In this document: one piece after another, positions 2,897-17,990 of the stretch | Numbering within the stretch: the first letter of the stretch is position 1 | Layout: each line of letters starts with the position of its first letter | Source of the DNA: Nitrococcus mobilis | Lineage (GTDB): Bacteria; Pseudomonadota; Gammaproteobacteria; Nitrococcales; Nitrococcaceae | NCBI GenBank assembly: GCA_024102725.1 | Contig: JAGFJL010000047.1 | Coordinates: 1 to 40,000 of the forward strand | DNA length: 40,000 nucleotides | Direction of reading: 5' to 3' | The notes under the pieces: model-generated | What the model saw: the letters and a program-made list of their open reading frames with translations, nothing else | What the model was told of the DNA's origin: nothing | Databases searched by the model: none | Translations under genes and position numbers: made by a program

Positions 2897-5800
2897 ACTC
2901 CCAACTAAAGCCTGCTGGGAGGCGGAAGATGCACGAATCATTCTGGCGAACGAAGCGCTGGAGCGAAATGATCCTGTATTTCTGGCTACCCACTCTCCGG
3001 TCGAAGGCTACCAAGTCGGCGGGAGTCACTCCAGTGACATTACCGAGCACACCGAGCAAGGTTTGCTCGATGCCCTCTCGGCGTCCTCCAACCACCATGC
3101 ATTCTGCGTAGTGGAAGGAGAGCCCGGATCGGGCAAGTCCCACCTCATCCGCTGGCTTGCGGTTCGCTGGCCCAAGGATGAGTCCCTGCAACCACTCCTC
3201 ATCCAACGCCTGGACGGTAGCCTTCAGGGGACGCTCCAGCAACTGCAAAGGGCCTTGCCGGAGGAACACCAGCACCTGTTCGAGCAGATCGGTCGTCCAC
3301 AAGACCGGACCCTGGCTGGGCGCGCGGGCCTGTTTCTCAAGACGCTGGCCCAGTCCTTGCGCCCAAACTTTTTCGTGAATCCACCTGAAGACGCCGAATG
3401 GTGTGAGCGATTCGGGCTTGCCGAAATACTGGACGACACAGCCCTCGTCGATCAATGGAAAGCGCCAGAGCGCATCATCGAACTCCTGTCCGGCAAGAAG
3501 GGTAAGCGCGACCAGGAACTGGCACGCTTCAATCTCCAGGACATGGCGGAACTCGAGCAGTTGATTCGACCGCTGGGGGCACCGACACCAAGGGCCGTAC
3601 GATTCAAGAACGAACTGAAAAAAGAGGCTCAGGCGATCCGGCAGTTGGCGCAGCAGGAGTTGGTCAATCCCGCCGCCCAAGAAGACTTGCGGCGCCGCTT
3701 CGACTACAGCTACAAACTGGTGGATGCCCTAAACGAGCGCCACAATAGTGCGGTGCAGAACGTCCTGGGCATCTCCACCGACGGCTTGAAGGAGTTGTTC
3801 CTGCGTCTACGGCGTGAGTTGCGTGACCGACGCCTAGTGCTGTTGCTGGAGGACATCACCGCCTGGGAGGGTGTGGACCGGCAGTTGATCGACGTGCTGG
3901 TCACCAACGTGGAGACACGCCAGGACCAGGACTTGTGTCCCATGATCTCGGTGGTAGGCGTAACGCCGGCCTATTTTCAGAACCGCAGTTTCAAGGCCAA
4001 CTACACCCAGCGCATCACCCACCACATCAGGCTGGGCGATCCCAGCGACACGCAGAATTACCAAGACGTGTCCGCCCTCCGCGCACCAGAATCGCAGATC
4101 GCGTTCGCAGCAAAGTATTTGCGGGCTACCCGGGCCGGCGTGCAACAACTGACCGAATGGGACGGTGGTCCTGACCCTGTGCCGAATCGATGTAACACTT
4201 GCCGCCACAAGGATCCGTGTCATCGCGAATTTGGCAATCACGAAGGGGTGGGGCTTTTTCCCTTTACCGAACAGGCCATCATCCGGCTGTACGGACTCTT
4301 GCGGGATCCCCAGCATATGGCCACCTACCAGACACCGCGCGGGATGTTACAGGGTGTGCTCTCTCCGACGATGCAGCACCCGCTGGACCTGGAGGCCGGT
4401 GAGTATCCCGGCCCTGAGATCGAGACTGACCTGATTCCCGAGGACGAGCGCAAATTGTTCGATCACGGACAGTTGGCGGATGTGCTCGAAGTCCGCATCG
4501 ACGATAGTAGAATCCGGGAGCGCGTGCGGCGCCTGGTGGCGTATTGGGGCGTGAAGGGTACTACGGCCACGAGCACCTTGGCGGACGGCGAAGGGGCGTT
4601 GGTCTACGGAGGCGTTCGGCAGGGAATTTACCAAGCACTCGATCTGCCATGGCTTGGTGATGAAACACCGGGCGGAGTTGTTGCCCCAACACAGCCAGAC
4701 CCCAATCAGCCAGTGGTGAATTCTCCGACTTCCCCCAATACTGGCGATGGGGGATCCGGCGGAAGTGCAAGGCCCGGACGACAGGATCAAGGGGAAACGG
4801 CAAGGCGGCGAATGCCTGACGGACCCCGCCGCATGACCGCCACACAGTTGGTGCGTGTGAAACAGGATATTGGCCGTTGGGTCGAAAGCAAATCGCCCGA
4901 ACGCCCTACTGAACTGAATCGACTCGCCTACGAAATCTTGGATAGATTGAACTGGACCCATCTGGAAGTGACACCGTGGATTCGGTCACGCGTGTTCACG
5001 GAGGATACGGTCATTCTTAGGGATACGAAGCCGGCAAGAGGTCCATACCTGATCCTTGACCGGGAGCCTTGGGTCGCGAAGGGTATCGGGGCGTATCAGG
5101 CGTTGCGCGCCGGTACCGACGACATGCCTGACCAGGAGATCGAAAGCTATCGGCGCAACTACGCCACCATACAACGCAAGCTGGGGTCGTTGGTATGTGA
5201 CAAGGTGAGGGAACGGCTTCCCAGTCTGAAAGGAGGGATAACTTGGGAAATTCTCGGCACCGCTGCTCAGATCCTGCTTGCCAGAGCGTGGTTGCGGGGC
5301 AATGTACCCCCCTTAGCCGACAGTTGGGAACAATGGCGGGCTGTGATTCGTGATGAAGGCGAAGCCGTCAGCAATCCGCAGGATCGCGTGGACAGTTGGA
5401 GCGCCTTGGTAGATGCCACGGGAGGAAGTCATGGAGTTCTGCGTAAACTTCTACGTCGATCTCTGAATCTTCCGGAGTACCAGCCTGACCCAGAGCAGGA
5501 TAAGGACACGTCGTTGGCCCACGTGGATTACCAACTCGTTGCTGCATTGGCCAACTCGCCGCAGACCTTCCAAACGCTGCCTCAACCCTCATCGCTTCAG
5601 GGGTTGGGTGAAAAGCTCTCAGAACTAAAGCGGTTGGCGGAAATCGCCGGAGAGGTAAACAAGCAACTCAAGAATATCCCGCGCTACGAGACTGAGAGAT
5701 TGGCTGGTCGCGCAAAGTTCGTGGAGCGTGTGTCGAGAGGTTCTTCCATTCGCCAGCACATTCTGCGGGTAGACAAAGTGGTGGAAGAGATCGCCAGACA

Positions 5801-6197
5801 TTTTCCCAACAACGTTGCAGAACCGGTTCAGGCGTGGCGCAAGGTCAGGCAGGACCTTGAGAACCAAGGTTTTCTCGCGGATGGTGTCGATTGCGCCGGT
5901 GCCACTGTCGAACAATTCATGGACCGAGTGTCAGATGGTGATGTTCCAAAACCAGAGGATCGTGCGCAAGCGCTTTCGTGGACCTTGGAGGCACCTGCGA
6001 ATGCCCTAAGAGTCGCCAATAAGGGATTTGAGGTTGCCGAAGATACCGTCGGTCGTTTGCTTGCGTACGTTGAGGAGTACCTAGAAGGAGCCTCAGGTGG
6101 AGGTGGAACGATAGAACAGGTCCGCGAAACGGGGGTGCGTATCCAGCAGGCGGCAGATAAGGCCATTAACGGTCTGGAGGAAGCATCCAATGGCTGA
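2889..6197 (+). CDS. large P-loop NTPase (1102 aa) with widely spaced Walker A/B and a long helical C-terminus
   Basis: Walker A GEPGSGKS at aa 77-84. Walker-B-like RLVLLLEDIT at aa 315-324, about 230 aa later, with a helical insertion between. Cys/His knuckle CNTCRHKDPCH. Pro/Gly/Ser-rich linker PTQPDPNQPVVNSPTSPNTGDGGSGGS. Long helical tail. Both termini are translationally coupled to the neighbouring genes. Confidence 0.8.
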   Translation: MAELPTKACWEAEDARIILANEALERNDPVFLATHSPVEGYQVGGSHSSDITEHTEQGLLDALSASSNHHAFCVVEGEPGSGKSHLIRWLAVRWPKDESLQPLLIQRLDGSLQGTLQQLQRALPEEHQHLFEQIGRPQDRTLAGRAGLFLKTLAQSLRPNFFVNPPEDAEWCERFGLAEILDDTALVDQWKAPERIIELLSGKKGKRDQELARFNLQDMAELEQLIRPLGAPTPRAVRFKNELKKEAQAIRQLAQQELVNPAAQEDLRRRFDYSYKLVDALNERHNSAVQNVLGISTDGLKELFLRLRRELRDRRLVLLLEDITAWEGVDRQLIDVLVTNVETRQDQDLCPMISVVGVTPAYFQNRSFKANYTQRITHHIRLGDPSDTQNYQDVSALRAPESQIAFAAKYLRATRAGVQQLTEWDGGPDPVPNRCNTCRHKDPCHREFGNHEGVGLFPFTEQAIIRLYGLLRDPQHMATYQTPRGMLQGVLSPTMQHPLDLEAGEYPGPEIETDLIPEDERKLFDHGQLADVLEVRIDDSRIRERVRRLVAYWGVKGTTATSTLADGEGALVYGGVRQGIYQALDLPWLGDETPGGVVAPTQPDPNQPVVNSPTSPNTGDGGSGGSARPGRQDQGETARRRMPDGPRRMTATQLVRVKQDIGRWVESKSPERPTELNRLAYEILDRLNWTHLEVTPWIRSRVFTEDTVILRDTKPARGPYLILDREPWVAKGIGAYQALRAGTDDMPDQEIESYRRNYATIQRKLGSLVCDKVRERLPSLKGGITWEILGTAAQILLARAWLRGNVPPLADSWEQWRAVIRDEGEAVSNPQDRVDSWSALVDATGGSHGVLRKLLRRSLNLPEYQPDPEQDKDTSLAHVDYQLVAALANSPQTFQTLPQPSSLQGLGEKLSELKRLAEIAGEVNKQLKNIPRYETERLAGRAKFVERVSRGSSIRQHILRVDKVVEEIARHFPNNVAEPVQAWRKVRQDLENQGFLADGVDCAGATVEQFMDRVSDGDVPKPEDRAQALSWTLEAPANALRVANKGFEVAEDTVGRLLAYVEEYLEGASGGGGTIEQVRETGVRIQQAADKAINGLEEASNG

Positions 6198-6900
6198 AGC
6201 ACCCGATCCAGATTCGCTGGAGCGCCTGGAATTGTTGTCCGGGCAAATACAGCGTGCCAAGGACCAGCACCGATTCGGCGACGCGCTAGATGCGGCGGTG
6301 CGCGCCGTCGATGATGCCGAGAGTGTAATCTCGCAATTTGAAAAACTCGCCGGATTTTCGGGGTTGGTTAACGGCTTTCTCGATCCATCGGACCGGCAGC
6401 ATTGCCTTGTCCTTCTGACGCGAGTGCGAACCCTGGGGCAGCAGCTTCCCCAGGTGTCCGACACTGCGACGTTGCAGGATGGGACAACCAAGGTTTCGCA
6501 ATTGCCGAGTCAGGTCGAGCAGGCCGATGCGATCATAAACCGCGGCTGGAAGGCAAAGATCGACCAGGCATTCGCTGCAACCGGTGAACTCGGCGGTGTC
6601 TTGCGGGAGATTCCCGAAACCCGGCAACTGGGCTCGGAAATGGAGGCGATCGCACTCCAGGCAGGGCAGCTCAAGACAGATTTGGAGGACGCTGAAAGAA
6701 GCATAGCCCGATTTAAGGCCCTGGTCGCCGAACGGGAAGGCACCACGGACAGCTTGACAAATTTGGGGGCGGGGAAAGAGGTGGTGGACTTCCTGTTCGC
6801 CGTGGCGAACCAGTCGGCCACGCTTGAAACCGTAACCGCAGAGGTCCGGAGTTGGCTTGATGAGCGGAATGCGCTTGCACGCTTCAAGGTGGGGTTATAG
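6190..6900 (+). CDS. hypothetical helical/coiled-coil protein, last gene of the + strand operon
   Basis: 236-aa ORF. Its start overlaps the upstream stop by 8 nt, with the same ATGGCTGA junction as at 2889. Ala/Leu/Glu/Gln-rich helical composition. No enzymatic motif. Confidence 0.6.
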   Translation: MAEAPDPDSLERLELLSGQIQRAKDQHRFGDALDAAVRAVDDAESVISQFEKLAGFSGLVNGFLDPSDRQHCLVLLTRVRTLGQQLPQVSDTATLQDGTTKVSQLPSQVEQADAIINRGWKAKIDQAFAATGELGGVLREIPETRQLGSEMEAIALQAGQLKTDLEDAERSIARFKALVAEREGTTDSLTNLGAGKEVVDFLFAVANQSATLETVTAEVRSWLDERNALARFKVGL

Positions 6901-7008: not shown

Positions 7009-10000
7009 TCAGGCTGTCAGTCGCTCCAATAATCGCAGACTGACGACTGCCTCTGCCAACGCTGCCGGCATCAGGTCACTACCAGTGTGAAGACACCCTT
7101 GACACCCGTCCACACACAGTCGTGCGCTCAACCGATAAACCTGATCCGCCAACCGGGCTTCGGCTCCAAGCGACTCTTCCTGGCTTGCCTCATCCAACCC
7201 TTGATAGGCGCTAATAAGCTCAGAAAGCCTGGGAGTTGCAGGGGCGCTGTCTGCCGCAGCGCGGACGACAGCGCTCACCAGTTCCCACTGGGATGCTTCC
7301 CTGGCCATGGTATCTCGGAGGCGGGCATCGATTGCGGTTATTTCTCCGTGCAGGCTGTAAAGGTCGAAACGTTGCGTCCCGACAGATTCAGTTCCGTAAA
7401 GGAGGCGTAGCACGCTTTGCATCGAACCTTCCTCGACAGCAGATCCGAGCCCCAGTTCCGCCGCTAGTCCGGCCATTTGCTCGGGATTGCGTGGGTCGAG
7501 ACTGCGCCACTCCTCATGCCGGTGGATTTTCTGGAACGCCTGTTCGATGATGGCGTCTTCCCTTGCGTTCGGGCAGTCGGCGAGTCCACCGCTGGACCAG
7601 TCTGCAAGAACTGCTTCGAGATTGTCCACGAACATCCTGGTGGTACCGTCACCATGTGCCCCGTTCTCAGCCACGGTGATGACATCCTCGGCGTCGGCTC
7701 CGAACTGTATCGGCAATTTCGCGTGGATTAGTACCTGGCGATCGTCGCCACGACCGTGCAGGACGAATGCTTGCTTGAGCCGGATGCTGAAGCTGTGTAC
7801 GAGGACGCTGCGCAGGTAGGCCGCGAACTGGTCTTCGGAGCTTACAGCCTCTAGGGCTTGCGCAAAGACATGTTGAAACTTGCGGTTACCCAGGCTGTCG
7901 GCAAGGCGGTCCACCCGTCGCTCGGAAAGCAAGGGATGGTAGGCCAGCATATCGGTGAAGGTCTGTTGCAGTAGGTTGCGCAGCGTCTGGCTGTCCCAGC
8001 GGCGGACCAAGCCGCGTAGTCTGTCGCGCAGTTCAGGGTGGCCGGCGGCGCTGAATAGCAGGTCGGCGGCGCGGTTTGCTTCGTAGGCGTTGATGCCTGC
8101 CGCACGGGCCTGACTGCCGATTAGGTAGCGGAACATCTGACCCCGGTGCCATCGGCCGTCCGGGTGTTCCCGTTGGCGCTCGACTTCCGTCTGGATGAAG
8201 TCGGTCAGGTAGGCACTGTTTAAGCGCAGACGTACACCTTCGGTCTGCACCCGATAGCCGTGCAACAACGTCTTGCTGGAGCGGGGATGGATGAAGGTCT
8301 GGGTGATGGGAATATCCGGCTGGTCCGGATCCATTAGGCGCAGTTCAACGTCAGCGCCCCAGGTGAGGGACGTCAATGCCAGCCCGGTTTGGTTACCCTC
8401 CATGCGGCCGCCGATGTATGCCTCGAAGCGCTCGCCGAAACGTTCGATCCCACGGATTGAGATGGCGTGGCCGCTGTCAGGTTGGGCTTCCACGTACGTG
8501 AAAGCGCGTAGGTTCCCTCGGCTCTTGGGATGGACCTTGAGGCCATTGTCGGGCTCGCTGGTGTCAATGCGCTGGACAGCCCTCTTCTCGGCGTCGTAGT
8601 ACCAATGGGCTGTCCAGCCGGCGCCCAGCATTCTGCCTGCCGTTTCCAGGACCACGCCGTTGGGGTGGCAAACGTTGGGATGGATGTCGGGGCCAACCTC
8701 TTCACGTGCCTCTACAGGGAGTTCCCGGAGCAGGGCATCCGGTCCCTTCTTCAACGGGGGTATCTCGAATCCATTGGAGACTTTGTACACCTCGTCGCTA
8801 AGCCAGGGCATCCGGCCTGCTCTTGGCGGCAGCCAGTGCAACAGGCTGAAGCCATAACGGCGTGTCATGTTGCCGGGGGTGGCGGCCTCGAAGGCCAGGT
8901 TTATTGCTTCGTCCTGCGAGCGGGCTTCGCCCCGTTCGCTCTCAAAGTGCACCGCCAGGGCTGGCAGGTTAGCGGTGGCGAACAGAGTCTTAGCTATCCA
9001 GGGAAGGGATTCGCGCAAGTCTCTTAGGGACATGTGCGAACTAAATGATATTGAAACTTCGTCTGTCGCTTGACGCCACAGGTTGTCCAGGCTCTCTGCC
9101 TCCAGTTGCCGATAGATCTCGGCACCAAAAATCGTGTGGACAAGGTGTTCGGCGAACTGCTGGGTTTGTTTGTTCAACCTGCTTCGCCCGTCCACGATCG
9201 TCAAACCGGTCCTGCCGTGCACGGTCGTGTGGCGGGCGAGGGCATCCAGCAAGGTTGCCAGCACCTGTCCCCGGCGCACGAAGTAGTTGGCCGCGTTGAG
9301 GGGGACGTCGAAATGGGCGCTGTCCAGCATCCGTTGGGGGCGGCGGAAGTACCAGGAATCCCGTGGGGAGTAGGGGGAGAGGGTGACGCCGGTGACGGGT
9401 CGGTCGTCCACGCCACGGCCGCCTCTGCCCTTGCGCTGGATAAAACTTGCCAGGTTGTTGGGGGCATAGTGCTGGTAGACCAGAGCCATATCCGGATCGT
9501 CGTAGCCAACTTCCAGCGAGGAGGTGGTGAAGACGATATCCGAGCTGCGGATCATTTCCTCGACCTTGCCTTTTTCTCCTGCAAAAACTGGGCGTTGGGA
9601 GACGATCAGGGCGTTGCCGGGACGGTAACGGCCGCGCGCCGTTACCTGGGCGTTGTCGGTGGCCGCAAAATACCAGCACTCCCCTTCGCGGAAACGGTCG
9701 CAGGTGGCGGGCTGGCCGCAGCACTCCCGGCGAGGCTGGCTGTTGCCGAGGTCGTCATCGAACAGACGGGTGCGTAGTGCGGCTAGATGGCGAGCTTCCT
9801 CGGCGTCCTGATAGTCACCGTGCAGGCGCTTGAGTTTATCGATGGAGTCAAGGAACACAATGGCACGGTAGCCGCCGTCACGTCCGGTGCGCCGACGCAT
9901 GCCGTGGGCCAGGCACATCAGACTCTGGATACTGGTTGAGGCGCCGGCGATGTCCTGTCCCCGGGACTCGACCTCCGGCTGGACGAAATAGAAGTATTCG

Positions 10001-13000
10001 CGGCCGCGCGGGTTCCGCCGACGCTCGCCGGGTTCGGGGCGGAGTTCGACGACTGGGTCGCGGCCGATCAGTTCGCCCCACACCCGAGCGGGATCACCGA
10101 GGGTGGCGCTCATGCCGATGGCTAGTGGCCTCGGTTGTTCGGGTCCGTTGATGGCCGATCGTGCCAGCAGGCGACGCAGGGTGTAGCCGACCTGAGCGCC
10201 GTGGATATGGGTATAGAGGTGGATCTCGTCGGCCAGGATCGCCCGCGGCGGCGGATGGGGGGCGATGTCGCCGAACAGGGCCCCATAGGCCGGGTTCTGC
10301 TGCCACTGGTGCAGGGACTCAGTGACCGGAAGGAAGAAGTCCGGCGGCTGCTGCTGCAAGGCGAGCTTGGAGCCTACCCAGCCGTCGAATGCCCAGGTGC
10401 ACCGGGTGCAGGCAAGTTGGTCGGCGCCCGCATGTCCCTTGCCCGGATGCAGGTGCAGGTCGCCGTCGCAATCCGGGCAGGCGAAGAAAGGAAAGCGCAA
10501 TGCGCCGCCAGGGGCGGTGGTCCAGATTCCGCTCAAGTACTCGGGGATGGTCTCGAATTGACCCGGAACCTGCCAGTTCTGCAGCCCCAAGGTAAGGGCG
10601 GGCAAGCCGCCGACGTTGGCGAGAGAGGCGAGATAGCCCGTGATGCGCTGGGCCTGATTCGCCGCAAGCCGCACCCGTGGGTAGACGAGTACGGCACGAG
10701 TTCCTTGGATGCCTTGCAGGCGGTCGTAGGCGGCACCGGCGATCAGCGGCAGACAGGCCGCCTCGGTCTTCCCGGCCCCTGTATCGGCGGTGATGACGAA
10801 GGTGTTGTCATCGCTACGGCCCAGCCAGGCGGGGAAGATGGTGCTCAGGGCGCGCACCTGGAAGCCGGCGAGGGGCGGATCGTCGTGGTTCCAGTGCTTG
10901 CGCAGCATGGCCTCCAGGCCATGCAGGACGTGGCGGGCCGTCATGTTTTCGCCGACGCCGTCTTGGATCTCCTGCATGACGGTAGACAGCGAGCGGTCCC
11001 GCACCGGCTTGTCGCGGTCCCGCACCTCGACCTTGAGTGAGCGGACCAGGTAGGGACGCCGGTCGGCGTCGCCGACGGCAAAACGCTGTTTAACGTAGCG
11101 TACCTCGCGGGCGAGTTCCGCCATGCGGCTACGGATTCTGCCTTCCTCGTCCATCGCTAGGTGGCCGTGGGACTGGAGTCGGCGCAGAGCGTCCGATACC
11201 TGGCCCCTGGACGTTTGCAGGCTGGTAGCCAAGTCGGGCAGAGAGGTCCAGCCCTCGTAGATGCCAAAGTTGATGCGCTGGACCTCCTTATCCTCCAGGT
11301 GGTTGAGGACCTCGAAGTCCTTGTCGGACAGGGGCTCCTTGGGGGATTCCTCCACATCCTCGGGAGTGGGCGCCTGTTCCAACCACTCCACGGTGGCGGA
11401 ACCGTTCACTTCCTTGATCTCGACCAGTCCCTCCCGGGCCATGGCTTCGATAACGGGCCAGACGCGGTCGTCGCCCGCGGTGTCCATCCAGACGAAGCGG
11501 TGACGGATGACGTTTTCGTAGAAGGAGGCATAGCGCCCGCGGCGTACATGGGTGGTGACCTCCTCCAGGCGGTCCCGCACGGTCTGGGCATCGCCGGGGA
11601 AAGGTGGACGGGGCGGGTCCAGGGGCTTGGCGGTCCAGAATGGGCCGAATCGGCCGTGCTTCTGGTTCAGTTGGATGTGGCCCAGGCGTACCAGGTCGCG
11701 CAGTTGGCCGAAGGGAACCGGGGACGACAGGTACAGCTTCTTCTTGATCTCGTAGTCGGCTGCGGTGCCATACGGATTCTTGATGGCGATCTCCCGGATG
11801 GCGGCCAGCAGTTCTTCCAGTTCTCTGGTGAATTCGGGCAGGGCCTCGGCCGGTTCCTCATCCGGGGCGTCGATGAGGGGCGGCAGTTCGCCGTCCTCGG
11901 TGAATCCTCGGACCCGGACGTTGACTGGGACCTTGCGGCCCGTGTTGTCGGTGATGTGAACGGTTCCCACCTCCGCGCTGTCGAACACCAATTCACGCAG
12001 GATCTGGGCCGCATCCAGCGTATTTTCATCCGGTGGCACCACGTCCAGGAGGCGGCGGCTGACGATCAGGATCAGCTTGGTCCGGGCGCGGGTGATGGCG
12101 ACATTTAGCCGTTCCACGCTGAATATAAAGTCCGCCTCGGCCAGGGCGAACTCCGGGTCGGATACTGTGTAGCTGGCGATGATGGCGTCGCGCTCCTTGC
12201 CCTGGATCTTGTCCACGGTCTCCACTACGGCGCCGTTCCCGGCCGGGTCGTTGGCAAGGGCGGCGCGGATGGCGGCATTCTGGGCCCGGTGGGGACTGAC
12301 CATAGCGAGTCGCTCCTGCCACACGGTCGCGGACGGCGTGGCATCTTGAGGCTCTCCGGTTGTCATCGCGGCATGCAGCCGGCGCGTCAGTCGGGCGGCA
12401 ACCGCGACCTCGAAGGGATTGGATGTACCCGCCGGGGGGCCGTCGTGTAGCAGAACGCAGAGGGGGTACTCGGGATCCAGAGCCAAGCGCTCCCAGTCCG
12501 CCAACCCATCGGCCCAGTCCCCGGCGAGTTGCAGGCGCTGGTGTTCAGATGCGTCGGTTGGGCGGTAGCGACCGGGGTAGAACTTGGACTCTGGGAAGCA
12601 GGTCAGCGGGGCATTGAGCCGGAAGGTCTCATCCAGCGGGTACTCTGCCACCTCGGCGGACTTGAGAAAGTCGTAGAGGGAGCCGCCGAGACGGCGCCCC
12701 TCAATCTCCTGAGTGTGGACGGTCCGCACCGGGGGCAGTTGCTTGTCGTCGCCGGCCACCAGGACGCGGCCGCCGGGGGCAAGCCCGGCTAGCGCCATGA
12801 GGCCGTTGCTGACCACCATCTGGGAAGCTTCGTCGATACAGACCAAGTGGAACAGGGGCGAGGTGGGCCCGTCGGTGACGGCCGGTTGCCCGGCATTCAG
12901 CAGTTTGTTCAGCGCCCACACCGAGCAGCCGACGATGAGGTGCTCGGTCTGCAGGGCATCCCACGCCTCGGCGGCGGCTTCGCGTTGCCGGAAGGAGATG

Positions 13001-13443
13001 TGCCGGATGGCAGGGCTGAGCCCGCTGCCCCGCTGGCTGCCCAGGTAGAGCACGTCCGGCGGGGAGGGCACATAGCGCGCCGATTTGGACTGGATGGCAT
13101 CGAGCAGATTGCCGATGGCGTTCAGCGTAAAGGCGTTGACCAGAATTCGGCAGGGCAGTCCAGCCGCCCGGCGGGCCTGCAGGTAGCCCAGCGCCATCCA
13201 AGCCAGCACGTAGGTCTTGCCGGTGCCAGGCGGCCCCTGGATAAGGCCGACGCGTTGCTCGGCCAGCCTGTTCCAGGCGGTGATTTGGGCCTGGCGCAAG
13301 GGGAAATCACCTTTCTCGTCGATCTGCGGTTGCGCGAAGTTCTCCAGTCCCTGGCGCCAGAGTCGGTGGTCGTCCTCGGGCAGGGTGCGGGCAAAGACCT
13401 GGGGCGCCCTCAGAAACTGGAGTATGTCCGCTCGCACGCTCAT
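7009..13443 (-). CDS. 2144-aa double helicase: N-terminal SF1 (Upf1/Dna2-like) helicase, winged-helix-like middle, SF2 DEAD/DEAH helicase, C-terminal DUF1998/MrfA-type Cys cluster
   Basis: - SF1 part: GPPGTGKT (aa 70-77), CIDEASQM (aa 202-209), VAGDDKQLPPV, SPHRAQ, VDKIQGKERD, NVAITRARTKLILI.
- SF2 part: ADTGAGKT (aa 885-892), ADEIH (aa 1071-1075), MSATLG (aa 1111-1116), QRKGRGGR (aa 1336-1343). A CPDCDG...CTRC zinc-ribbon insert sits at aa 989-1015.
- C-terminus: CVDGCQGC, about aa 2110-2117.
- The 6.4-kb ORF is uninterrupted. Its start overlaps the upstream nuclease stop (ATGA). Confidence 0.9.
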   Translation of the reverse strand: MSVRADILQFLRAPQVFARTLPEDDHRLWRQGLENFAQPQIDEKGDFPLRQAQITAWNRLAEQRVGLIQGPPGTGKTYVLAWMALGYLQARRAAGLPCRILVNAFTLNAIGNLLDAIQSKSARYVPSPPDVLYLGSQRGSGLSPAIRHISFRQREAAAEAWDALQTEHLIVGCSVWALNKLLNAGQPAVTDGPTSPLFHLVCIDEASQMVVSNGLMALAGLAPGGRVLVAGDDKQLPPVRTVHTQEIEGRRLGGSLYDFLKSAEVAEYPLDETFRLNAPLTCFPESKFYPGRYRPTDASEHQRLQLAGDWADGLADWERLALDPEYPLCVLLHDGPPAGTSNPFEVAVAARLTRRLHAAMTTGEPQDATPSATVWQERLAMVSPHRAQNAAIRAALANDPAGNGAVVETVDKIQGKERDAIIASYTVSDPEFALAEADFIFSVERLNVAITRARTKLILIVSRRLLDVVPPDENTLDAAQILRELVFDSAEVGTVHITDNTGRKVPVNVRVRGFTEDGELPPLIDAPDEEPAEALPEFTRELEELLAAIREIAIKNPYGTAADYEIKKKLYLSSPVPFGQLRDLVRLGHIQLNQKHGRFGPFWTAKPLDPPRPPFPGDAQTVRDRLEEVTTHVRRGRYASFYENVIRHRFVWMDTAGDDRVWPVIEAMAREGLVEIKEVNGSATVEWLEQAPTPEDVEESPKEPLSDKDFEVLNHLEDKEVQRINFGIYEGWTSLPDLATSLQTSRGQVSDALRRLQSHGHLAMDEEGRIRSRMAELAREVRYVKQRFAVGDADRRPYLVRSLKVEVRDRDKPVRDRSLSTVMQEIQDGVGENMTARHVLHGLEAMLRKHWNHDDPPLAGFQVRALSTIFPAWLGRSDDNTFVITADTGAGKTEAACLPLIAGAAYDRLQGIQGTRAVLVYPRVRLAANQAQRITGYLASLANVGGLPALTLGLQNWQVPGQFETIPEYLSGIWTTAPGGALRFPFFACPDCDGDLHLHPGKGHAGADQLACTRCTWAFDGWVGSKLALQQQPPDFFLPVTESLHQWQQNPAYGALFGDIAPHPPPRAILADEIHLYTHIHGAQVGYTLRRLLARSAINGPEQPRPLAIGMSATLGDPARVWGELIGRDPVVELRPEPGERRRNPRGREYFYFVQPEVESRGQDIAGASTSIQSLMCLAHGMRRRTGRDGGYRAIVFLDSIDKLKRLHGDYQDAEEARHLAALRTRLFDDDLGNSQPRRECCGQPATCDRFREGECWYFAATDNAQVTARGRYRPGNALIVSQRPVFAGEKGKVEEMIRSSDIVFTTSSLEVGYDDPDMALVYQHYAPNNLASFIQRKGRGGRGVDDRPVTGVTLSPYSPRDSWYFRRPQRMLDSAHFDVPLNAANYFVRRGQVLATLLDALARHTTVHGRTGLTIVDGRSRLNKQTQQFAEHLVHTIFGAEIYRQLEAESLDNLWRQATDEVSISFSSHMSLRDLRESLPWIAKTLFATANLPALAVHFESERGEARSQDEAINLAFEAATPGNMTRRYGFSLLHWLPPRAGRMPWLSDEVYKVSNGFEIPPLKKGPDALLRELPVEAREEVGPDIHPNVCHPNGVVLETAGRMLGAGWTAHWYYDAEKRAVQRIDTSEPDNGLKVHPKSRGNLRAFTYVEAQPDSGHAISIRGIERFGERFEAYIGGRMEGNQTGLALTSLTWGADVELRLMDPDQPDIPITQTFIHPRSSKTLLHGYRVQTEGVRLRLNSAYLTDFIQTEVERQREHPDGRWHRGQMFRYLIGSQARAAGINAYEANRAADLLFSAAGHPELRDRLRGLVRRWDSQTLRNLLQQTFTDMLAYHPLLSERRVDRLADSLGNRKFQHVFAQALEAVSSEDQFAAYLRSVLVHSFSIRLKQAFVLHGRGDDRQVLIHAKLPIQFGADAEDVITVAENGAHGDGTTRMFVDNLEAVLADWSSGGLADCPNAREDAIIEQAFQKIHRHEEWRSLDPRNPEQMAGLAAELGLGSAVEEGSMQSVLRLLYGTESVGTQRFDLYSLHGEITAIDARLRDTMAREASQWELVSAVVRAAADSAPATPRLSELISAYQGLDEASQEESLGAEARLADQVYRLSARLCVDGCQGCLHTGSDLMPAALAEAVVSLRLLERLTA

Positions 13444-15737
13444 TCGGGTGCCTCACCGAGGAACGCCATGAAGTTCGCCGCCCTCCCGGTGGTGAAGTCC
13501 TTAAAGGTGCGGTCAAGGAACCAGCCGGCTTCTCCGGTTTCCCGGAGCAGGCGCTGAAAGTCATCGCCCTCGTAAAGCGTGGCAGGGACGTTGACCAGCA
13601 GGGTGCCACTATTGGCGAAGTCGGGCCGCTCGGGGGCGATTCGTGCCTCGAAGTTGGGCCAAAACTGGGGGTTGAGCCGGATGTCCGGATTGTCGTCGGT
13701 GAGGATGAGGTCGAAATTATTGGATGACAACTCGCTCTCCCGGCTTTCCGGCGGCACGGAAAACAGCATGCCGTATTGGCCCCAATTGGCCTTCCAATGC
13801 CTCAAAAGGGTCATCTGGGCGATGCAGCGGGCCCGATCGCGCCGCTGGCTGAAGGGCTGGGCCAGGGAGACCAGGGCCTCCAGCATGCCGGTGCGGTTCT
13901 CCAGGAGTTCGAAGGCGTGAAGCAGGTCCAGGTCCACGGCGTTGAGCGGGTCCAGGGTCTGCTGAAAGCGGAAGGGCCGCTTGTTCAGGCGCAGGAAGGC
14001 ATAGTCACCGCCCTGTTTAAGGGCAGTGGCGTTCTTGTGCATCAGCCACTCGGCCAGCGCGCGCATGGCATCCAGGCGGGCGATGACATCCTGGCGTACC
14101 GACTCGGGCTCGATGCGCCCGTCCCGCAGATCGCGACATACGTCGATGGACAGGCGGGACGAGAAGGGGCGGCGGAACGGAGGGTCAGGGGCGTAGGCAG
14201 GCGAAAGGGCTGGTTCGGTGTTCGCCAAGGCGCCGGTCACCTGGCGCAGGTCGTAGGCCACCATGACCGGCAATGCATAGACCTGCTCAACTACGCTGCG
14301 CAGGGCGGTGGCCGGAAGATGATGGATTCCGCGGAATTCCGGCTCGGGGACCACGTCATCGGGAGGAAACATGCGGATCAGGTGGAGCAGGCCAGTTCGT
14401 ACCAGCGGATTTTCCAGGTGGCGCGCCACTGCGTACTGCAAGCCGGCGGCCTCCGAAGGCTCATATAAAAAAATGTGGGCCTGGATCTGCTCCGCGGGTG
14501 AATCCTCGTGGGCGGTGTTGTGGCGGTCGATGGCCGCCAGGTCCGTGACCAGTTGGCCCAGGACCTTGCACAGCGCTTCGCTCTCCCGTTCCGGGCTTCC
14601 AGCGGGCAAGACCTCGACCAGGTATTCGTTGTTCCCACCCTCACTACGCAGGTACCCGAGCGTGATGAGGTTGTCCTCCACCGGATCGACATCGACGACG
14701 AGGTAGAGGCCCACGTCCACTCGCGGCGGCATCAGGTAACTGGCGACACCCGGTATGCGCTGGACTTCGCCGGCGACCAGTGCCTGGGCACGCCGCGTCA
14801 GCAGTTCAGCCCGTCGGCGCAGCGCCCAACTGCCGGCGCTAGAGGCCCGCAGCCCTCGGGCTTCAGCGAGCTTGCCAACTTTGTCAGTGCCCAGCCGATC
14901 TAATGCCCGTTTGGCCTCGTGAGAGACCCCGGCAACCGCCGACACATCCCGTTCCGCAGGCAGAATCCTTTCGTCAATGGACTGGCTGCAATGGCGCAGA
15001 TACTCACATTGTTCGCACTTGAAATATATATGGAAGAAGGTGTTGTCCCAGGTGGACGACACGATACTCTCCGCAATTACGGGTATCTCGTTGGACAAAA
15101 AGTCCGCAACCAGGCGTTGGTAGGGCTCTAGCCGGAATTCCTCGGCGCGGTAGAGGCCATCCTCGCCCTTGCTGCCTGGTGGCAAGCACCAGATCTGGCC
15201 GGTTCGATCCAAGACGCCCGGTGCCCTGAGGGCGGCGAGGGTTGATTGAAGCACCAGGCTGTAAAAAGCCACTTGTGCTTTGTGGAAGGTTGTAGCGCGT
15301 TGGGTGGCTTTGATGTCGATGATCTGAAAGCGGGGTTCGGAGTCGCCCCGCTCAATCCGAACCAGGTCCGGTAGAGCTCGTCTGACCGTGACGTCTTTGG
15401 AGAGTCCGAGTTGTTCTCGCAGTTGACTGTGGGACTCGAGGACCAGCTGGTGTGCATAGGTTTCTGATCGGCGGCCCTTAAGGAACGCCGTGGAGAGATC
15501 TTGCGAGAGATAGTCCTCTCCAACGGCTGGGCCCAAAACGCCGACTTCCGCGGCCAAGCGTGATACCACCTTCCGTTCGAACTTGTTGCCCAGTTGGGCC
15601 CAGGCCGGAATCACTAGATCCCGCAGGATCGGGATTTCATCGCGCTCTTTCCCGGTGAAGGTATCGTACCGGGTCTTTCGTGGGCAGCGATACTGAAACC
15701 AGGATTTGACCGTAGAAGCGCTGAAGGCGAGGGGCAT
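13440..15737 (-). CDS. RecB/Cas4-like PD-(D/E)xK nuclease with Fe-S cysteine signature and a C-terminal RNase-H-like region (TM0106-type architecture, inferred)
   Basis: C18 (YRCPRK), D124 (PDLV), D141-I-K143 (IIDIKAT), Q155xxxY159 (KAQVAFY), then C241-x2-C244-x5-C250 (CEQCEYLRHC). This is the Cas4/AddB pattern of one N-terminal Cys plus CX2CX5C. Downstream are an HhH-like VAGVSHEAKRALDRLG and a block LYLVVDVDPVEDNLITLGYL ... HIFLYEPSEAAGL, which resembles the RNase-H-fold domain of TM0106-type RecB-like nucleases. Confidence 0.75.
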   Translation of the reverse strand: MPLAFSASTVKSWFQYRCPRKTRYDTFTGKERDEIPILRDLVIPAWAQLGNKFERKVVSRLAAEVGVLGPAVGEDYLSQDLSTAFLKGRRSETYAHQLVLESHSQLREQLGLSKDVTVRRALPDLVRIERGDSEPRFQIIDIKATQRATTFHKAQVAFYSLVLQSTLAALRAPGVLDRTGQIWCLPPGSKGEDGLYRAEEFRLEPYQRLVADFLSNEIPVIAESIVSSTWDNTFFHIYFKCEQCEYLRHCSQSIDERILPAERDVSAVAGVSHEAKRALDRLGTDKVGKLAEARGLRASSAGSWALRRRAELLTRRAQALVAGEVQRIPGVASYLMPPRVDVGLYLVVDVDPVEDNLITLGYLRSEGGNNEYLVEVLPAGSPERESEALCKVLGQLVTDLAAIDRHNTAHEDSPAEQIQAHIFLYEPSEAAGLQYAVARHLENPLVRTGLLHLIRMFPPDDVVPEPEFRGIHHLPATALRSVVEQVYALPVMVAYDLRQVTGALANTEPALSPAYAPDPPFRRPFSSRLSIDVCRDLRDGRIEPESVRQDVIARLDAMRALAEWLMHKNATALKQGGDYAFLRLNKRPFRFQQTLDPLNAVDLDLLHAFELLENRTGMLEALVSLAQPFSQRRDRARCIAQMTLLRHWKANWGQYGMLFSVPPESRESELSSNNFDLILTDDNPDIRLNPQFWPNFEARIAPERPDFANSGTLLVNVPATLYEGDDFQRLLRETGEAGWFLDRTFKDFTTGRAANFMAFLGEAPE

Positions 15738-15839: not shown

Positions 15840-16745
15840 TGACCTGCCCCCGCAATTAGGACCGCGTTCCAGTTAGCTCAGTCCGCTCAGTCAACTACCT
15901 CCCAGGGGCAAGATCCCAGGGAGAATTCCTGCCGCCAGTAGGCGGCAAATTCGGCCGGCACCAAATAACCCAGCGCCGAATGCGGTCGCTTTTCATTGTA
16001 ATCACGTCGCTAGGCCGCGATCTCGGCTCGCGCATGGGCGAGACTCGTAAACCAGTGCTCGTTCAAGCACTCATCCCGTATAAGTTGCACTCCCCGCTCA
16101 TAGGCCCATTGGTCGAGTGCCTTACCCGTGAACTCCGGCCCCTGGTCGGTTCGGATCGCTTTGGGCACACCCCGGAACCGTACCGCCCGTTCCAGAGAGC
16201 GCACCACGTAGGCGCCCGGGATGCTGCAATCGACCACAATGTCGAGTGCCTCCTTGGTGAAGTCATCGGGGCGCTCGGCAGCTCCAGAGGTTCACGATTC
16301 ACCGCCACACCCTGGCGCCGCCGACGCTTGCGCACCGCCAAGCCTTGCTGCTGATAGTGGCGCAGCACCTTCTTATGGTTGACCACCACGCCTTCGCGCC
16401 GTAGCAGCGCGTGAATCCGCCGATACCCGAATCGCCGCCGCTGTTGCGCCAGATCCATGATCCGGCCCCGTAGCGCTTCGTCTGAGGCGCTGGACATGGC
16501 CTAATAGCGCAACACTGACCTCGAGATCCCCACAAGCCCGCATGCACTTCGCTCCGAGACGCCGGTGCGCTCGCACATCTCCGCCACCGCCTCACGCTTT
16601 GGCTTGTGGAGTCAGTACTTTCCCGACAGCGCTGCCTTCAGTGCCTCGTTATCGAGCATCGACTCGGCCAGCAACTTCTTCAGCCGGGCGTTCTCCGCCT
16701 CCAACGATTTGAGCCGCCGGCGCAGATTGCGCGGCGGGCCGGTAT
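15840..16745 (-). mobile_element. IS3-family (IS407-group-like) element, 3' two-thirds: orfA C-terminus, decayed orfB, outer inverted repeat
   Basis: The outer end reads TGACCTGCCCCCGCAATTAGG from 15840 inward; IS407-group ends as I recall them start TGACCTGCCCCC. The orfA tail is RRLKSLEAENARLKKLLAESMLDNEALKAALSGKY (16612-16745). Its 5' portion is found separately at 19500-19592. Confidence 0.75.
15891..16611 (-). pseudogene. IS3-family orfB (DDE/rve transposase) pseudogene
   Basis: Reads KREAVAEMCERTGVSERSACGLVGISRSVLRY*AMSSASDEALRGRIMDLAQQRRRFGYRRIHALLRREG, with an in-frame TAG. A frame change and loss of the NQxWxxD...DDFT segment follow near 16260-16290. Then DCSIPGAYVVRSLERAVRFRGVPKAIRTDQGPEFTG and AEIAA*RRDYNEKRPHSALGYLVPAEF, where TAG sits where W is expected. 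Confidence 0.8.
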
Positions 16746-16978
16746 ATCGGAGCAGACGCTGTACCGCTGGCCGGATGGGTTTCTCAGCGCGGGCAAGCAG
16801 GCGATGAACGGCCGTGCCATGCGCAACGAGCAAGCCAAGGCGATCGAACGTCTGCTGGGCGAGCTTGCTGAGCGCAACCAGGTCATCGGCGAGCTCACGG
16901 TCGCTAATCGCATTTTAAAAAACCCCCGAAGGCCGGCGGCCTGCCCGGAGAAAGAGAAACTCGGGCCTGCGCTAGACT
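16735..16978 (+). pseudogene. 5'-truncated HTH transposase orfA fragment of a second element (element X)
   Basis: The + strand reads AQIARRAGISEQTLYRWPDGFLSAGKQAMNG...AIERLLGELAERNQVIGELTVANRILKN. This is an HTH followed by a leucine-zipper-like segment, typical of IS3-like orfA proteins. There is no start codon and no upstream IR. It abuts the antisense IS407-like orfA at about 16740. Confidence 0.55.
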
Positions 16979-17155
16979 GAGCGCACTCCGAGGGGAGCGG
17001 CCGTTGACTTTTTGGTGGACCACCCCGTTTAAAAACGTGGCCCAGGGACTGTAGCGGACCCGATAGTGGTGACGCGCCTGTGCGATCCCGGTTAGGAAAA
17101 TGATCCATTCCGCCATCCCGCCCTTCGGAGGATTTTTGCTCGAAGGAGGACAGTG

Positions 17156-17940: not shown

Positions 17941-17990
17941 TGCCCCGATTTGGTGGAGCCTTCAAAGTGCTCAAATGGAGGGCATCCACT

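What the first reader, a model, noticed from the sequence alone, without database searches (positions are those of the whole stretch)
7009..15737. Cas4-like Fe-S nuclease coupled to a 2144-aa SF1 + SF2(DUF1998) double helicase: candidate undescribed defence effector pair
Two intact, translationally coupled genes (ATGA overlap at 13440-13443) fill 8.7 kb.

Gene 1 (765 aa):
- Complete PD-(D/E)xK set: D124, D141-x-K143, QxxxY.
- Cas4/AddB cysteine arrangement: C18 plus CX2CX5C at 241-250.
- A second, RNase-H-like looking domain.

Gene 2 (2144 aa):
- Fuses a full SF1 Upf1/Dna2-type helicase (aa ~60-470) to a full SF2 DEAD/DEAH helicase (aa ~880-1350, with a CxxC...CxxC insert).
- Ends in a CxxxCxxC cluster like the DUF1998/MrfA zinc module of DrmA and DruE-type defence helicases.

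I do not know a described defence system with this two-gene architecture, that is, two different helicase superfamilies in one chain plus a Cas4-like nuclease. Its setting among other defence-type genes in ICE cargo fits an anti-phage or anti-plasmid role.

Alternatives:
- A fused, divergent version of Dpd restriction components (DpdD/E/J-like).
- A Druantia DruE-like protein with an added SF1 module.
Basis: partly seen in the sequence, partly recalled or inferred. Interest (0 to 1): 0.85.

Follow-up and report, generated by a model that had tools for sequence, protein, structure and literature searches.

The report
Dpd restriction helicase-nuclease pair, variant form
The two genes are real and work together, but they are not a new defence system: they are the helicase-nuclease part of a known 7-deazaguanine DNA modification/restriction system (Dpd), in a widespread, little-described variant where a split Dna2-like nuclease-helicase replaces the usual PLD nuclease.

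Summary
The "undescribed pair" reading fails. Gene 2 (2144 aa) matches a PADLOC DpdJ model end to end (2036 bits). The window also holds DpdF/G/H, DpdA, two DpdB, DpdC and Que genes, all on an ICE. Gene 1 (765 aa) matches no named Dpd, defence or NCBIfam family. It sits where canonical Dpd has its PLD nuclease DpdK.

In 46 of 48 informative genomes, a gene 1 homologue is followed directly by a long DpdJ. The 4-bp (A/G)TGA overlap is kept in 46 of 55 junctions. One metagenome Dpd cluster fuses both genes into a single 3312-aa protein.

Single-chain "Dna2-like" proteins of about 1270 aa are colinear with gene 1 and then with DpdJ residues 49-500. So the pair is a split Dna2-like Fe-S nuclease/SF1B helicase grafted onto the YprA-type DpdJ helicase.

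Likely function (inferred): an ATP-driven, two-motor helicase-nuclease that degrades DNA lacking dPreQ0/dADG. This is a new variant of a known kind and of moderate interest. It points to a concrete candidate for the restriction nuclease of Dpd, whose restriction mechanism is still unknown.

The parts
13440..15737 (-). Gene 1, 765 aa. Dna2/Cas4-type Fe-S PD-(D/E)xK nuclease, RNase-H-like fold, and helical stalk plus beta-barrel. Positional replacement of the PLD nuclease DpdK.
   Evidence: ORF. PDDEXK_1 above cut-off. AF2 pLDDT 86. Foldseek hits to MGME1, Dna2 and AddB. More than 440 homologues of about 760 aa.
14973..15737 (-). Gene 1 aa 1-255: PD-(D/E)xK nuclease domain with four cysteines (C18, C241, C244, C250) and catalytic D124, D141, K143, Q155, Y159.
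   Evidence: invariance. (MGME1 E=4e-4, Dna2 E=9e-4).
14223..14723 (-). Gene 1 aa about 339-505: RNase-H-like fold. D349, D351, E385 and D496 are invariant within the Dpd-linked family.
   Evidence: Secondary structure. Foldseek hits to DnaQ domain, YeaZ, integrase, RuvC and EndoV, all weak. Invariants. Not invariant in distant fused relatives.
13443..14150 (-). Gene 1 aa about 530-765: helical stalk plus beta-barrel, resembling the 1B barrel region of Upf1-like SF1B helicases.
   Evidence: Foldseek hits to Sen1 and Ighmbp2 (prob 0.7-0.99, 135-173 columns) that persist in the 330-765 sub-model, plus FAD-type barrels.
13440..13443 (-). ATGA stop/start overlap coupling gene 1 to gene 2.
   Evidence: An (A/G)TGA overlap is kept in 46 of 55 homologous junctions.
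7009..13443 (-). Gene 2, 2144 aa: long-form DpdJ.
   Evidence: PADLOC PDLC02895 DpdJ, 2036 bits, residues 1-2143 against 1-2108 of 2112. NCBIfam DpdJ reaches only 333 bits against a cut-off of 800, over aa 713-1436. More than 550 homologues of about 2100-2170 aa.
12034..13299 (-). DpdJ aa 49-470: SF1B (Dna2/Upf1-type) helicase module. Walker A at G70-T77 (K76), DEASQ at 204-208.
   Evidence: 37% identity to the helicase half of the single-chain Dna2-like protein P0314.
10864..11946 (-). DpdJ aa 500-860: linker with a weak wHTH signal near aa 730-770. Homology to canonical DpdJ starts at aa 713.
9244..10863 (-). DpdJ aa 861-1400: YprA-type SF2 helicase core (TGAGKT 888-893, DEIH 1072-1075, SAT 1112-1114, QRKGRGGR 1336-1343) with two invariant four-Cys inserts.
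7012..9243 (-). DpdJ aa 1401-2144: C-terminal region ending in invariant C1957, C2110, C2114 and C2117 (DUF1998-like position).
   Evidence: No profile match to DUF1998 or MrfA.
7..1899 (+). DpdF helicase (5' end cut by the window edge).
   Evidence: PADLOC DpdF 445 bits, NCBIfam DpdF 363 bits.
2003..2896 (+). DpdG-like protein.
   Evidence: NCBIfam DpdG 60.8 bits (cut-off 80) over its full length. Homologues hit Pfam DpdG.
2889..6197 (+). DpdH.
   Evidence: PADLOC DpdH 625 bits.
6190..6900 (+). orf236: conserved small gene after dpdH, in the DpdI position. No family match.
   Evidence: Conserved next to dpdH in most loci.
16063..19300 (.). IS debris (IS3 and IS110 transposase fragments) between gene 1 and dpdB.
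19607..24063 (-). Modification genes: dpdB (19607-20668), dpdA (20631-21950), a second dpdB (21947-23140) and dpdC (23080-24063).
   Evidence: NCBIfam DpdA 505 bits (cut-off 200). DpdB 370 and 456 bits (cut-off 300). PADLOC DpdC 280 bits.
24190..25607 (+). preQ0 genes: queC remnant (24190-24413), queE split over two reading frames (24432-25059), queD intact (25062-25607).
32099..39112 (+). ICE transfer genes: TraI_2 relaxase, T4 coupling protein, DUF4400, TraE.

Best explanation
The pair is the helicase-nuclease effector of the restriction half of a Dpd (7-deazaguanine) modification/restriction system, in a variant form.

Shown by homology: DpdA, two DpdB paralogues and DpdC mark host DNA with dPreQ0/dADG. 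DpdF/G/H, orf236 and this pair form the restriction side.

Shown by sequence comparison: gene 1 plus the first ~500 residues of gene 2 together correspond to one bacterial Dna2-like protein (an Fe-S PD-(D/E)xK nuclease, an RNase-H-like fold, a stalk/barrel and an SF1B helicase). Its helicase half has been fused to the YprA-type SF2 helicase DpdJ. This module takes the place of the PLD nuclease DpdK of canonical Dpd.

Inferred mechanism: the two proteins are co-translated and form one complex. On DNA lacking the 7-deazaguanine mark, the SF1B motor (5'->3', as in Dna2 and Upf1) and the YprA-type motor (3'->5', as in MrfA) travel on opposite strands in the same direction, as in RecBCD or AddAB. 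They feed single strands to the Fe-S nuclease of gene 1, and possibly to its RNase-H-like domain, which degrades the foreign DNA.
For: Dpd membership:
- Full-length PADLOC DpdJ match.
- DpdF/G/H and DpdA/B/B/C in the window.
- Que genes alongside.

Linkage:
- 46 of 48 genomes with enough sequence have a complete long DpdJ directly after the gene 1 homologue. 43 of 48 have DpdH.
- An (A/G)TGA overlap in 46 of 55 junctions.
- DpdJ-centred look-ups in Pseudomonas and Hyalangium give the same picture.
- Rosetta-stone fusion: a 3312-aa protein carrying gene 1, SF1 and SF2, in an identical Dpd context.

Split Dna2-like origin:
- P0314 (1274 aa, named Dna2 by JGI) is colinear with gene 1 (E=1e-37) and then with DpdJ 49-500 (37% identity, E=5e-67).
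- Several more fused relatives exist.
- The PDB sequence search puts DpdJ 62-477 closest to the Dna2 helicase.
- The gene 1 model hits MGME1, Dna2 and AddB.

Activity:
- All nuclease, Fe-S-cysteine, SF1 and SF2 motifs are invariant.

Nuclease replacement:
- No PLD or DpdK match was seen in any window protein scanned or in the fully annotated Methylobacterium island.
- The literature names the PLD protein DpdK as the canonical nuclease (PMC5567051; bioRxiv 10.1101/2025.09.15.676423).
Against: - No experiment exists on this variant. The roles of DpdD-K are unknown even in Salmonella (PMC10164549).
- Motor polarities and complex formation are inferred from relatives, not tested.
- NCBIfam's DpdJ, DpdF, DpdG and DpdH equivalog cut-offs are not reached, so these are divergent Dpd proteins.
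- In compact loci the pair is co-directional with the modification and que genes, not with dpdF-H. This would also fit a role on the modification side.
- One locus (L007) has the pair in a defence island with no Dpd gene within 10 kb.
- The acidic residues of the RNase-H-like domain are not invariant in distant relatives.
- In this window queC and queE are decayed, so the local system may depend on host preQ0 or be degenerating.
Confidence: 0.7

Rival explanations
1. The pair is an autonomous two-gene defence system that merely tends to sit beside Dpd genes in defence islands.
For: L007 (Vulcanimicrobiota) carries the pair among NERD/UvrD and TIR-like genes with no Dpd gene within 10 kb. Gene 1 has no hit in PADLOC. 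A fused relative (P0330) is Tn7-like transposon cargo near an Mrr-type nuclease.
Against: 43 of 48 informative loci have DpdH next to the pair, and L048 has DpdE. The gene order with dpdC-B-A-B-queEDC, or with orf236-dpdH-G-F, is conserved across phyla. Gene 2 is itself DpdJ. The fused 3312-aa version lies in the same Dpd cluster.
Confidence: 0.1
2. The pair is a DNA repair or processing module serving the modification branch. It would, for example, unwind or resect DNA to give DpdA/B access, or repair damage from base exchange. It would not be the restriction nuclease.
For: In compact loci the pair follows dpdC-dpdB-dpdA-dpdB-queE-queD-queC on the same strand. Its two ancestors, Dna2-like and YprA/MrfA-like proteins, are repair enzymes (own knowledge; the YprA preprint). 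The fused relatives P0314 and P0355 lie among housekeeping genes.
Against: In Salmonella, DpdA/B/C suffice for modification in vitro and in vivo, and dpdD-K give the restriction phenotype (PMC10164549). DpdJ falls in the defensive branch of the YprA family (bioRxiv 10.1101/2025.09.15.676423). Gene 1 is the only recognisable nuclease left in a variant that lacks DpdK.
Confidence: 0.12
3. The pair acts as a sensor or translocase that only recognises unmodified DNA. Cleavage would be done by another component (DpdH, DpdG, orf236, or a host nuclease), and the gene 1 nuclease would have a minor trimming role.
For: DpdH, DpdG and orf236 have no assigned function. BREX-like systems with related parts restrict without an obvious nuclease (PMC12839542).
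Against: The catalytic residues D124, K143, Q155 and Y159 and all four cysteines are invariant down to about 20% identity, and D141 nearly so. This argues for a catalytically active nuclease under strong selection.
Confidence: 0.08

Closest known systems
Canonical Dpd system of Salmonella Montevideo (DpdA-K): DpdJ helicase plus DpdK PLD nuclease
   Same: The same system logic and most of the same parts: DpdA, DpdB, DpdC, DpdF, DpdG, DpdH, a small gene after dpdH, and a YprA-type DpdJ with a Cys insert in RecA1 (bioRxiv 10.1101/2025.09.15.676423).
   Different: - DpdJ here carries an extra ~500-aa N-terminal SF1B helicase and keeps a C-terminal four-Cys cluster that canonical DpdJ has lost.
- The nuclease is a 765-aa PD-(D/E)xK/Fe-S protein encoded upstream of dpdJ, instead of the PLD protein DpdK downstream.
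- There are two DpdB paralogues.
- No DpdD or DpdK was seen, and DpdE is present only in some loci.
- NCBIfam equivalog cut-offs for DpdJ/F/G/H are not reached.
Dna2 and bacterial single-chain Dna2-like nuclease-helicases ('bifunctional RecB family nuclease/DEAD/DEAH box helicase')
   Same: An N-terminal Fe-S PD-(D/E)xK nuclease, then a barrel/stalk, then an SF1B helicase. There is colinear sequence homology to P0314 over both genes. PDB hits to the Dna2 nuclease and helicase.
   Different: Here the chain is split between the barrel and the helicase core, and the helicase half is fused to DpdJ. An RNase-H-like fold is inserted after the nuclease, which eukaryotic Dna2 lacks.
RecBCD / AddAB / AdnAB dual-motor helicase-nucleases
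   Same: Two helicase motors of expected opposite polarity combined with RecB/Cas4-type nuclease domains. AddB has the same kind of Fe-S nuclease (weak Foldseek hit). This is a working analogy for processive DNA destruction.
   Different: One motor here is SF2 (YprA-type), not SF1A. No homology beyond the shared domains. No Chi-like regulation is known. The analogy is an inference and was not tested.
MrfA/MrfB (YprA/YprB) repair pair
   Same: A YprA-family SF2 helicase encoded next to a nuclease with an RNase-H-like/DnaQ-like fold. The DpdJ SF2 core hits YprA 6znp.
   Different: Gene 1 gives no sequence match to PF13482 or YprB. Its main nuclease is PD-(D/E)xK. The context is defence, not repair.
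[quoted passage not shown]
   Same: A 7-deazaguanine cluster plus YprA-type helicase(s) plus a Dna2-like nuclease-helicase (bioRxiv 10.1101/2025.09.15.676423).
   Different: BRIGADE is reported only in halophilic archaea, has ARMADA-like YprA homologues, and usually has a PLD nuclease. Here the system is bacterial, has a single DpdJ-clade helicase, and has the Dna2-like unit split and fused.
DISARM DrmA/DrmB and Druantia DruE
   Same: Helicases of the same YprA superfamily used in defence.
   Different: Only local motif-level matches (43 bits or less to DrmA, 37 bits or less to DruE). The partner genes are different.

Membership tests
Dpd system (7-deazaguanine DNA modification/restriction) | DpdA, a TGT-like DNA transglycosylase | tested here: met
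   window 20631-21950(-): NCBIfam DpdA 505 bits (cut-off 200); PADLOC DpdA 496 bits.
Dpd system (7-deazaguanine DNA modification/restriction) | DpdB (DGQHR/ParB-like ATPase) and DpdC next to dpdA | tested here: met
   Two DpdB at 370 and 456 bits (cut-off 300). PADLOC DpdC 280 bits, with no NCBIfam hit for DpdC.
Dpd system (7-deazaguanine DNA modification/restriction) | Restriction-side genes dpdD-K | tested here: inconclusive
   DpdF, DpdG, DpdH and DpdJ are present (PADLOC) but below the NCBIfam equivalog cut-offs. orf236 is in the DpdI position with no match. DpdD, DpdE and DpdK were not found in the window, although DpdF is cut by the window edge, so D and E could lie outside it.
Dpd system (7-deazaguanine DNA modification/restriction) | dPreQ0/dADG present in DNA, and restriction of unmodified DNA | not testable with these tools
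   Needs LC-MS of genomic DNA and transformation or phage assays.
DpdJ | Full-length match to a DpdJ profile | tested here: met
   PADLOC PDLC02895: 2036 bits, residues 1-2143 against 1-2108 of 2112.
DpdJ | NCBIfam equivalog NF041067 (canonical ~1480-aa DpdJ), score of at least 800 | tested here: not met
   333.5 bits, covering aa 713-1436 only. So this is a divergent long form, not the canonical equivalog.
DpdK (PLD-family nuclease of canonical Dpd) | PLD domain, or a DpdK profile match, for gene 1 | tested here: not met
   No PLD or DpdK hit in Pfam, NCBIfam or PADLOC, even at E up to 10. Gene 1 is a PD-(D/E)xK protein.
Cas4 / RecB-type PD-(D/E)xK nuclease with an Fe-S cluster | D...D/ExK and QxxxY motifs plus one N-terminal and three C-terminal cysteines | tested here: met
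   D124, D141, K143, Q155, Y159, C18, C241, C244 and C250 are invariant or nearly so. PDDEXK_1 is above its cut-off. Fold hits to MGME1, Dna2 and AddB. Metal-cluster binding itself was not tested.
Cas4 / RecB-type PD-(D/E)xK nuclease with an Fe-S cluster | Membership of Cas4 proper (PF01930 / TIGR00372) | tested here: not met
   Cas_Cas4 16.7 bits against a cut-off of 22.7. PADLOC Cas4 E of 0.03 or weaker. No CRISPR context.
TM0106 family RecB-like nuclease (TIGR03491) | Score of at least 97.45 bits | tested here: not met
   38.2 bits over aa 121-371. The layout is related (nuclease plus the start of an RNase-H-like fold) but gene 1 is not a member.
Dna2-like nuclease-helicase | Fe-S PD-(D/E)xK nuclease followed by an SF1B helicase, colinear with single-chain members | tested here: met
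   P0314 is colinear with gene 1 (E=1e-37) and with DpdJ 49-500 (E=5e-67). Pfam architecture of the fused relatives. The Dna2 helicase is the best PDB match. Here the unit is split over two genes.
YprA/MrfA family (DUF1998 helicases) | SF2 core related to YprA | tested here: met
   PDB 6znp YprA E=2e-5. JGI names some homologues YprA. The literature places DpdJ in the YprA family.
YprA/MrfA family (DUF1998 helicases) | C-terminal DUF1998/MZB four-Cys zinc domain | tested here: inconclusive
   Four invariant Cys (1957, 2110, 2114, 2117) at the C-terminus. But there is no Pfam DUF1998 hit at E up to 10, and no MrfA hit with a C-terminal profile.
Druantia DruE | Full-length DruE profile match | tested here: not met
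   Only local hits of 37 bits or less at the helicase motifs.

The most novel reading that the evidence does not exclude
The pair forms a previously unrecognised kind of dual-motor helicase-nuclease. An SF1B (5'->3') motor and a YprA-type SF2 (3'->5') motor sit in one chain, bound to a Dna2-type Fe-S nuclease that also carries a possibly active RNase-H-like exonuclease. It would be functionally analogous to RecBCD or AddAB but assembled from different parts. It would serve as the modification-sensitive executioner of a widespread Dpd subtype, and it may be able to work outside Dpd (locus L007).
Probability: 0.3. Interest if true: 0.6.

Novelty: new variant of a known kind. Interest (0 to 1): 0.4.

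Why it matters
How Dpd restricts DNA is unknown. Even in Salmonella the roles of DpdD-K are undefined. This variant is found in hundreds of genomes and metagenome contigs, across Alpha- and Gammaproteobacteria, Myxococcota, Planctomycetota and other phyla. It has swapped the PLD nuclease for a recognisable Dna2-like nuclease-helicase that is physically tied to DpdJ by a conserved overlap and, in one case, a full gene fusion.

Three consequences follow:
- It gives a concrete, testable candidate for the catalytic core of Dpd restriction.
- It shows that the nuclease module of Dpd is exchangeable.
- Public annotation (PGAP: 'hypothetical protein', 'AAA domain-containing protein') and PADLOC both miss gene 1, so a named family could be added.

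It is not a new defence system.

Tried and rejected
- PADLOC, NCBIfam and Pfam searches for gene 1 as DpdK, PLD, Cas4 proper or TM0106: none reach threshold.
- DruE/Druantia and DrmA/DISARM readings for gene 2: only motif-level hits.
- DUF1998 at the DpdJ C-terminus: no Pfam hit on the last 263 or 745 residues at E up to 1-10, and no MrfA hit with a C-terminal profile against the PDB.
- Sequence profile of gene 1 against the PDB: no hit at E up to 1.
- A link between gene 1's RNase-H-like domain and MrfB/YprB (PF13482): an idea from memory, with no sequence support. Fold hits are generic RNase-H-like only.
- Promoter and terminator scan of 6700-16300: nothing above the shuffle expectation.
- Conserved upstream genes in loci lacking DpdABC within 10 kb: none. 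The Methylobacterium plasmid shows that the modification genes then lie beyond dpdF.
- Thiaville et al. 2016 (PMC4801273) is not held in the library, so its cluster figures could not be checked for this variant.
Full report
OBSERVATION. They share an ATGA stop/start overlap at 13440-13443.

In gene 1, D124, D141-I-K143, Q155...Y159, C18 and C241-x2-C244-x5-C250 are all present. Apart from C18, which is nearly invariant, they are invariant in an alignment of 26 homologues down to 48% identity. D124, K143, Q155, Y159 and all four cysteines stay invariant in a set that reaches about 20% identity.

In gene 2 the following are invariant in 21 homologues:
- the SF1 motifs (GPPGTGKT at 70-77, DEASQ at 204-208, motif VI);
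- the SF2 motifs (TGAGKT at 888-893, DEIH at 1072-1075, SAT at 1112-1114, QRKGRGGR at 1336-1343);
- three four-cysteine clusters (989/992/1012/1015; 1241/1242/1248/1256; 1957/2110/2114/2117).

There are small corrections. The SF2 Walker lysine is K892, not K891. The 'DUF1998' label could not be confirmed by any profile.

WHAT IT IS. Gene 2 matches PADLOC's DpdJ model PDLC02895 from end to end (2036 bits, residues 1-2143 against 1-2108 of 2112). NCBIfam's canonical DpdJ equivalog aligns only to residues 713-1436 and stays below its cut-off (333 bits against 800). So this is a long, divergent DpdJ that carries about 700 extra N-terminal residues.

The neighbours make the assignment clear:
- DpdF (7-1899, cut by the window edge), DpdG (2003-2896), DpdH (2889-6197) and a conserved 236-aa gene in the DpdI position (6190-6900). 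These converge on the pair.
- On the other side of some IS debris lie dpdB, dpdA, a second dpdB and dpdC (19607-24063).
- These are followed by queC, queE and queD.
- TraI_2 relaxase, a coupling protein, DUF4400 and TraE further on support an ICE.

Gene 1 is a different matter. It passes Pfam PDDEXK_1. It fails Cas4 proper and TM0106 (38 bits against 97). It has no hit to DpdK, to PLD, or to any PADLOC model. Its family is large (more than 440 clusters of about 760 aa) and is annotated 'hypothetical' or 'PD-(D/E)XK nuclease family protein'. The long DpdJ family is annotated 'AAA domain-containing protein'. PGAP names neither gene on the Methylobacterium XJLW plasmid.

LINKAGE. A scan of one genome per species found 66 loci. 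Of these, 56 have a full-length gene 1 homologue, and 48 of those have at least 6.3 kb of downstream sequence.
- 46 of the 48 have a complete long DpdJ directly downstream on the same strand.
- 43 of the 48 have DpdH.
- 22 of the 48 have DpdA within 10 kb.
- The (A/G)TGA overlap is kept in 46 of 55 junctions, and 54 of 55 lie within -14 to +3 bp.

Two layouts recur:
- dpdC-dpdB-dpdA-dpdB-queE-queD-queC-gene1-dpdJ, then convergent orf236-dpdH-G-F.
- gene1-dpdJ at the island edge, with the modification genes beyond dpdF.

DpdJ-centred look-ups in Pseudomonas fluorescens and Hyalangium gracile give the same pairing, and they also show a DpdE-like SNF2 helicase. The fully annotated Methylobacterium island has no DpdD, DpdE or DpdK.

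The exceptions are two degenerate loci (L023, L054) and one locus (L007) where the pair lies in a generic defence island with no Dpd gene within 10 kb. L048, first scored as lacking Dpd neighbours, has a DpdE-like gene right after dpdJ.

ORIGIN OF THE PAIR. An exhaustive profile search with the gene 1 alignment found the ~760-aa family plus many proteins of 1240-1410 aa whose N-terminal part matches gene 1. Pfam shows that these end in an AAA_11/AAA_12 SF1B helicase. Sources call them 'Dna2' or 'bifunctional RecB family nuclease/DEAD/DEAH box helicase'.

One of them, P0314, is colinear with gene 1 (28% identity, residues 121-683 against 135-660, E=1e-37). It then continues colinear with DpdJ residues 49-500 (37% identity, against 788-1247, E=5e-67). 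So gene 1 plus the SF1B head of DpdJ is a split Dna2-like nuclease-helicase.

Independent support:
- The best solved relative of DpdJ 62-477 is the Dna2 helicase domain.
- The gene 1 model (pLDDT 86) hits MGME1, Dna2 and AddB.
- About 135-173 residues of its C-terminal part resemble the barrel region of Sen1 and Ighmbp2, also in a sub-model lacking the nuclease domain.

A 3312-aa protein (P0301) joins gene 1, SF1 and SF2 in one chain. It sits in an identical Dpd cluster: QueD, QueC, GCHY-1, a 324-aa gene, DndB-like, TGT, DndB-like, the fusion, then a convergent small gene and a long gene.

The fused Dna2-like relatives occur among housekeeping genes and as Tn7-like transposon cargo next to an Mrr-type nuclease. 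No named NCBIfam family claims them.

HOW IT PROBABLY WORKS. Shown: the identity of the parts, their strict coupling, and the conservation of every catalytic motif.

From the literature:
- DpdA/B insert preQ0 into DNA, and DpdC converts it to ADG.
- dpdD-K give restriction, but the individual roles are unknown (PMC10164549).
- Canonical DpdJ is a YprA-family helicase partnered with the PLD nuclease DpdK. [quoted passage not shown]

Inferred: in this variant the Dna2-like unit replaces DpdK. Because Dna2/Upf1-type SF1B motors move 5'->3' and MrfA/YprA moves 3'->5' (own knowledge of those families), the long DpdJ would drive both strands of a duplex in one direction, as RecBCD and AddAB do. It would feed them to the Fe-S nuclease of gene 1.

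The RNase-H-like fold (aa ~339-505) has four acidic residues that are invariant within the Dpd-linked family: D349, D351, E385 and D496. It might therefore be a second, 3'-5' exonuclease. But these residues are not invariant in distant relatives, and the fold matches are weak. I leave this open. How the 7-deazaguanine mark is read is also unknown.

RIVALS.
- An autonomous system: supported only by L007.
- A repair or processing role on the modification side: suggested by the co-orientation with dpdCBAB-queEDC and by the repair ancestry of both modules.
- A sensor-only role.

All three are less likely, for the reasons given in their entries.

COMPARISON AND NOVELTY. This is a member of the Dpd kind of system, but a distinct variant. 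It has a long DpdJ with an SF1B head and retained C-terminal cysteines, a PD-(D/E)xK/Fe-S nuclease encoded upstream in place of PLD DpdK, and two DpdB.

PADLOC already holds a model for the long DpdJ, so the locus would be called Dpd automatically. In the searchable literature I found only two traces of this variant:
- a passing 'data not shown' remark that a helicase and a Cas4-like PD-D/ExK nuclease lie next to tgt genes (PMC5567051);
- the statement that 'uncharacterized Dpd-like classes' exist (the YprA preprint, where the terms SF1 and Cas4 do not occur).

No paper combined dpdA, Cas4, helicase and deazaguanine. The Thiaville 2016 paper could not be read, so prior depiction of this variant there cannot be excluded.

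VERDICT. This is a new variant of a known kind, of moderate interest (0.4). It offers a clear candidate for the catalytic core of Dpd restriction and an example of nuclease-module exchange, but it is not a new system.

Noticed in passing
window 24190-25607: The preQ0 biosynthesis genes next to dpdC are decayed. queC survives only as two short fragments (aa 7-48 and 193-229). queE is split over two reading frames near 24668-24685. queD looks intact. The island may rely on the host's own preQ0 pathway, or it may be degenerating.
   Followed up: partly
window 16063-19300 and 26316-26792: IS3 and IS110 transposase fragments separate gene 1 from dpdB, where compact relatives have queE-queD-queC. 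Another IS3 fragment follows queD. The cluster has been rearranged by IS activity.
   Followed up: partly
window 19607-20668 and 21947-23140; also L067, L069/L070, L071: This Dpd variant always has two DpdB paralogues flanking dpdA, whereas the Salmonella system is described with one. L071 even has a third DndB-like gene.
   Followed up: no
L067 7686-17624: A metagenome contig encodes gene 1 and long DpdJ as one 3312-aa protein within an otherwise identical Dpd cluster. This is a natural fusion of the pair.
   Followed up: yes
L007 (Vulcanimicrobiota MAG) 10001-18603: The pair sits among NERD/UvrD-helicase, TIR-like and SAVED-like genes, with no Dpd gene within 10 kb. It could be an orphan or an autonomously acting copy.
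   Followed up: partly
L073/L074 (Clostridium butyricum) 8001-11771: A single-chain relative (gene 1-like nuclease plus SF1B helicase, 1256 aa) is carried as cargo of a Tn7-like transposon (TnsB, TniB, TniQ/TnsD, TnsE) near an Mrr-type nuclease. This suggests a defence role for the unsplit form too.
   Followed up: no
window 6190-6900: A 236-aa gene overlapping the end of dpdH is conserved in most related loci at 22-35% identity. It matches no Pfam, NCBIfam or PADLOC family. It is the positional equivalent of DpdI.
   Followed up: partly
L069 33835-34419 (Methylobacterium XJLW plasmid): A VUT-family (queuosine-precursor salvage transporter) gene is embedded between dpdF and queC in that island. 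This hints that some Dpd islands import preQ0-type precursors.
   Followed up: no
window 28011-28550: A NadS/MqsA-like HTH protein lies between the Dpd region and the ICE transfer genes. It could be an antitoxin or a regulator.
   Followed up: no
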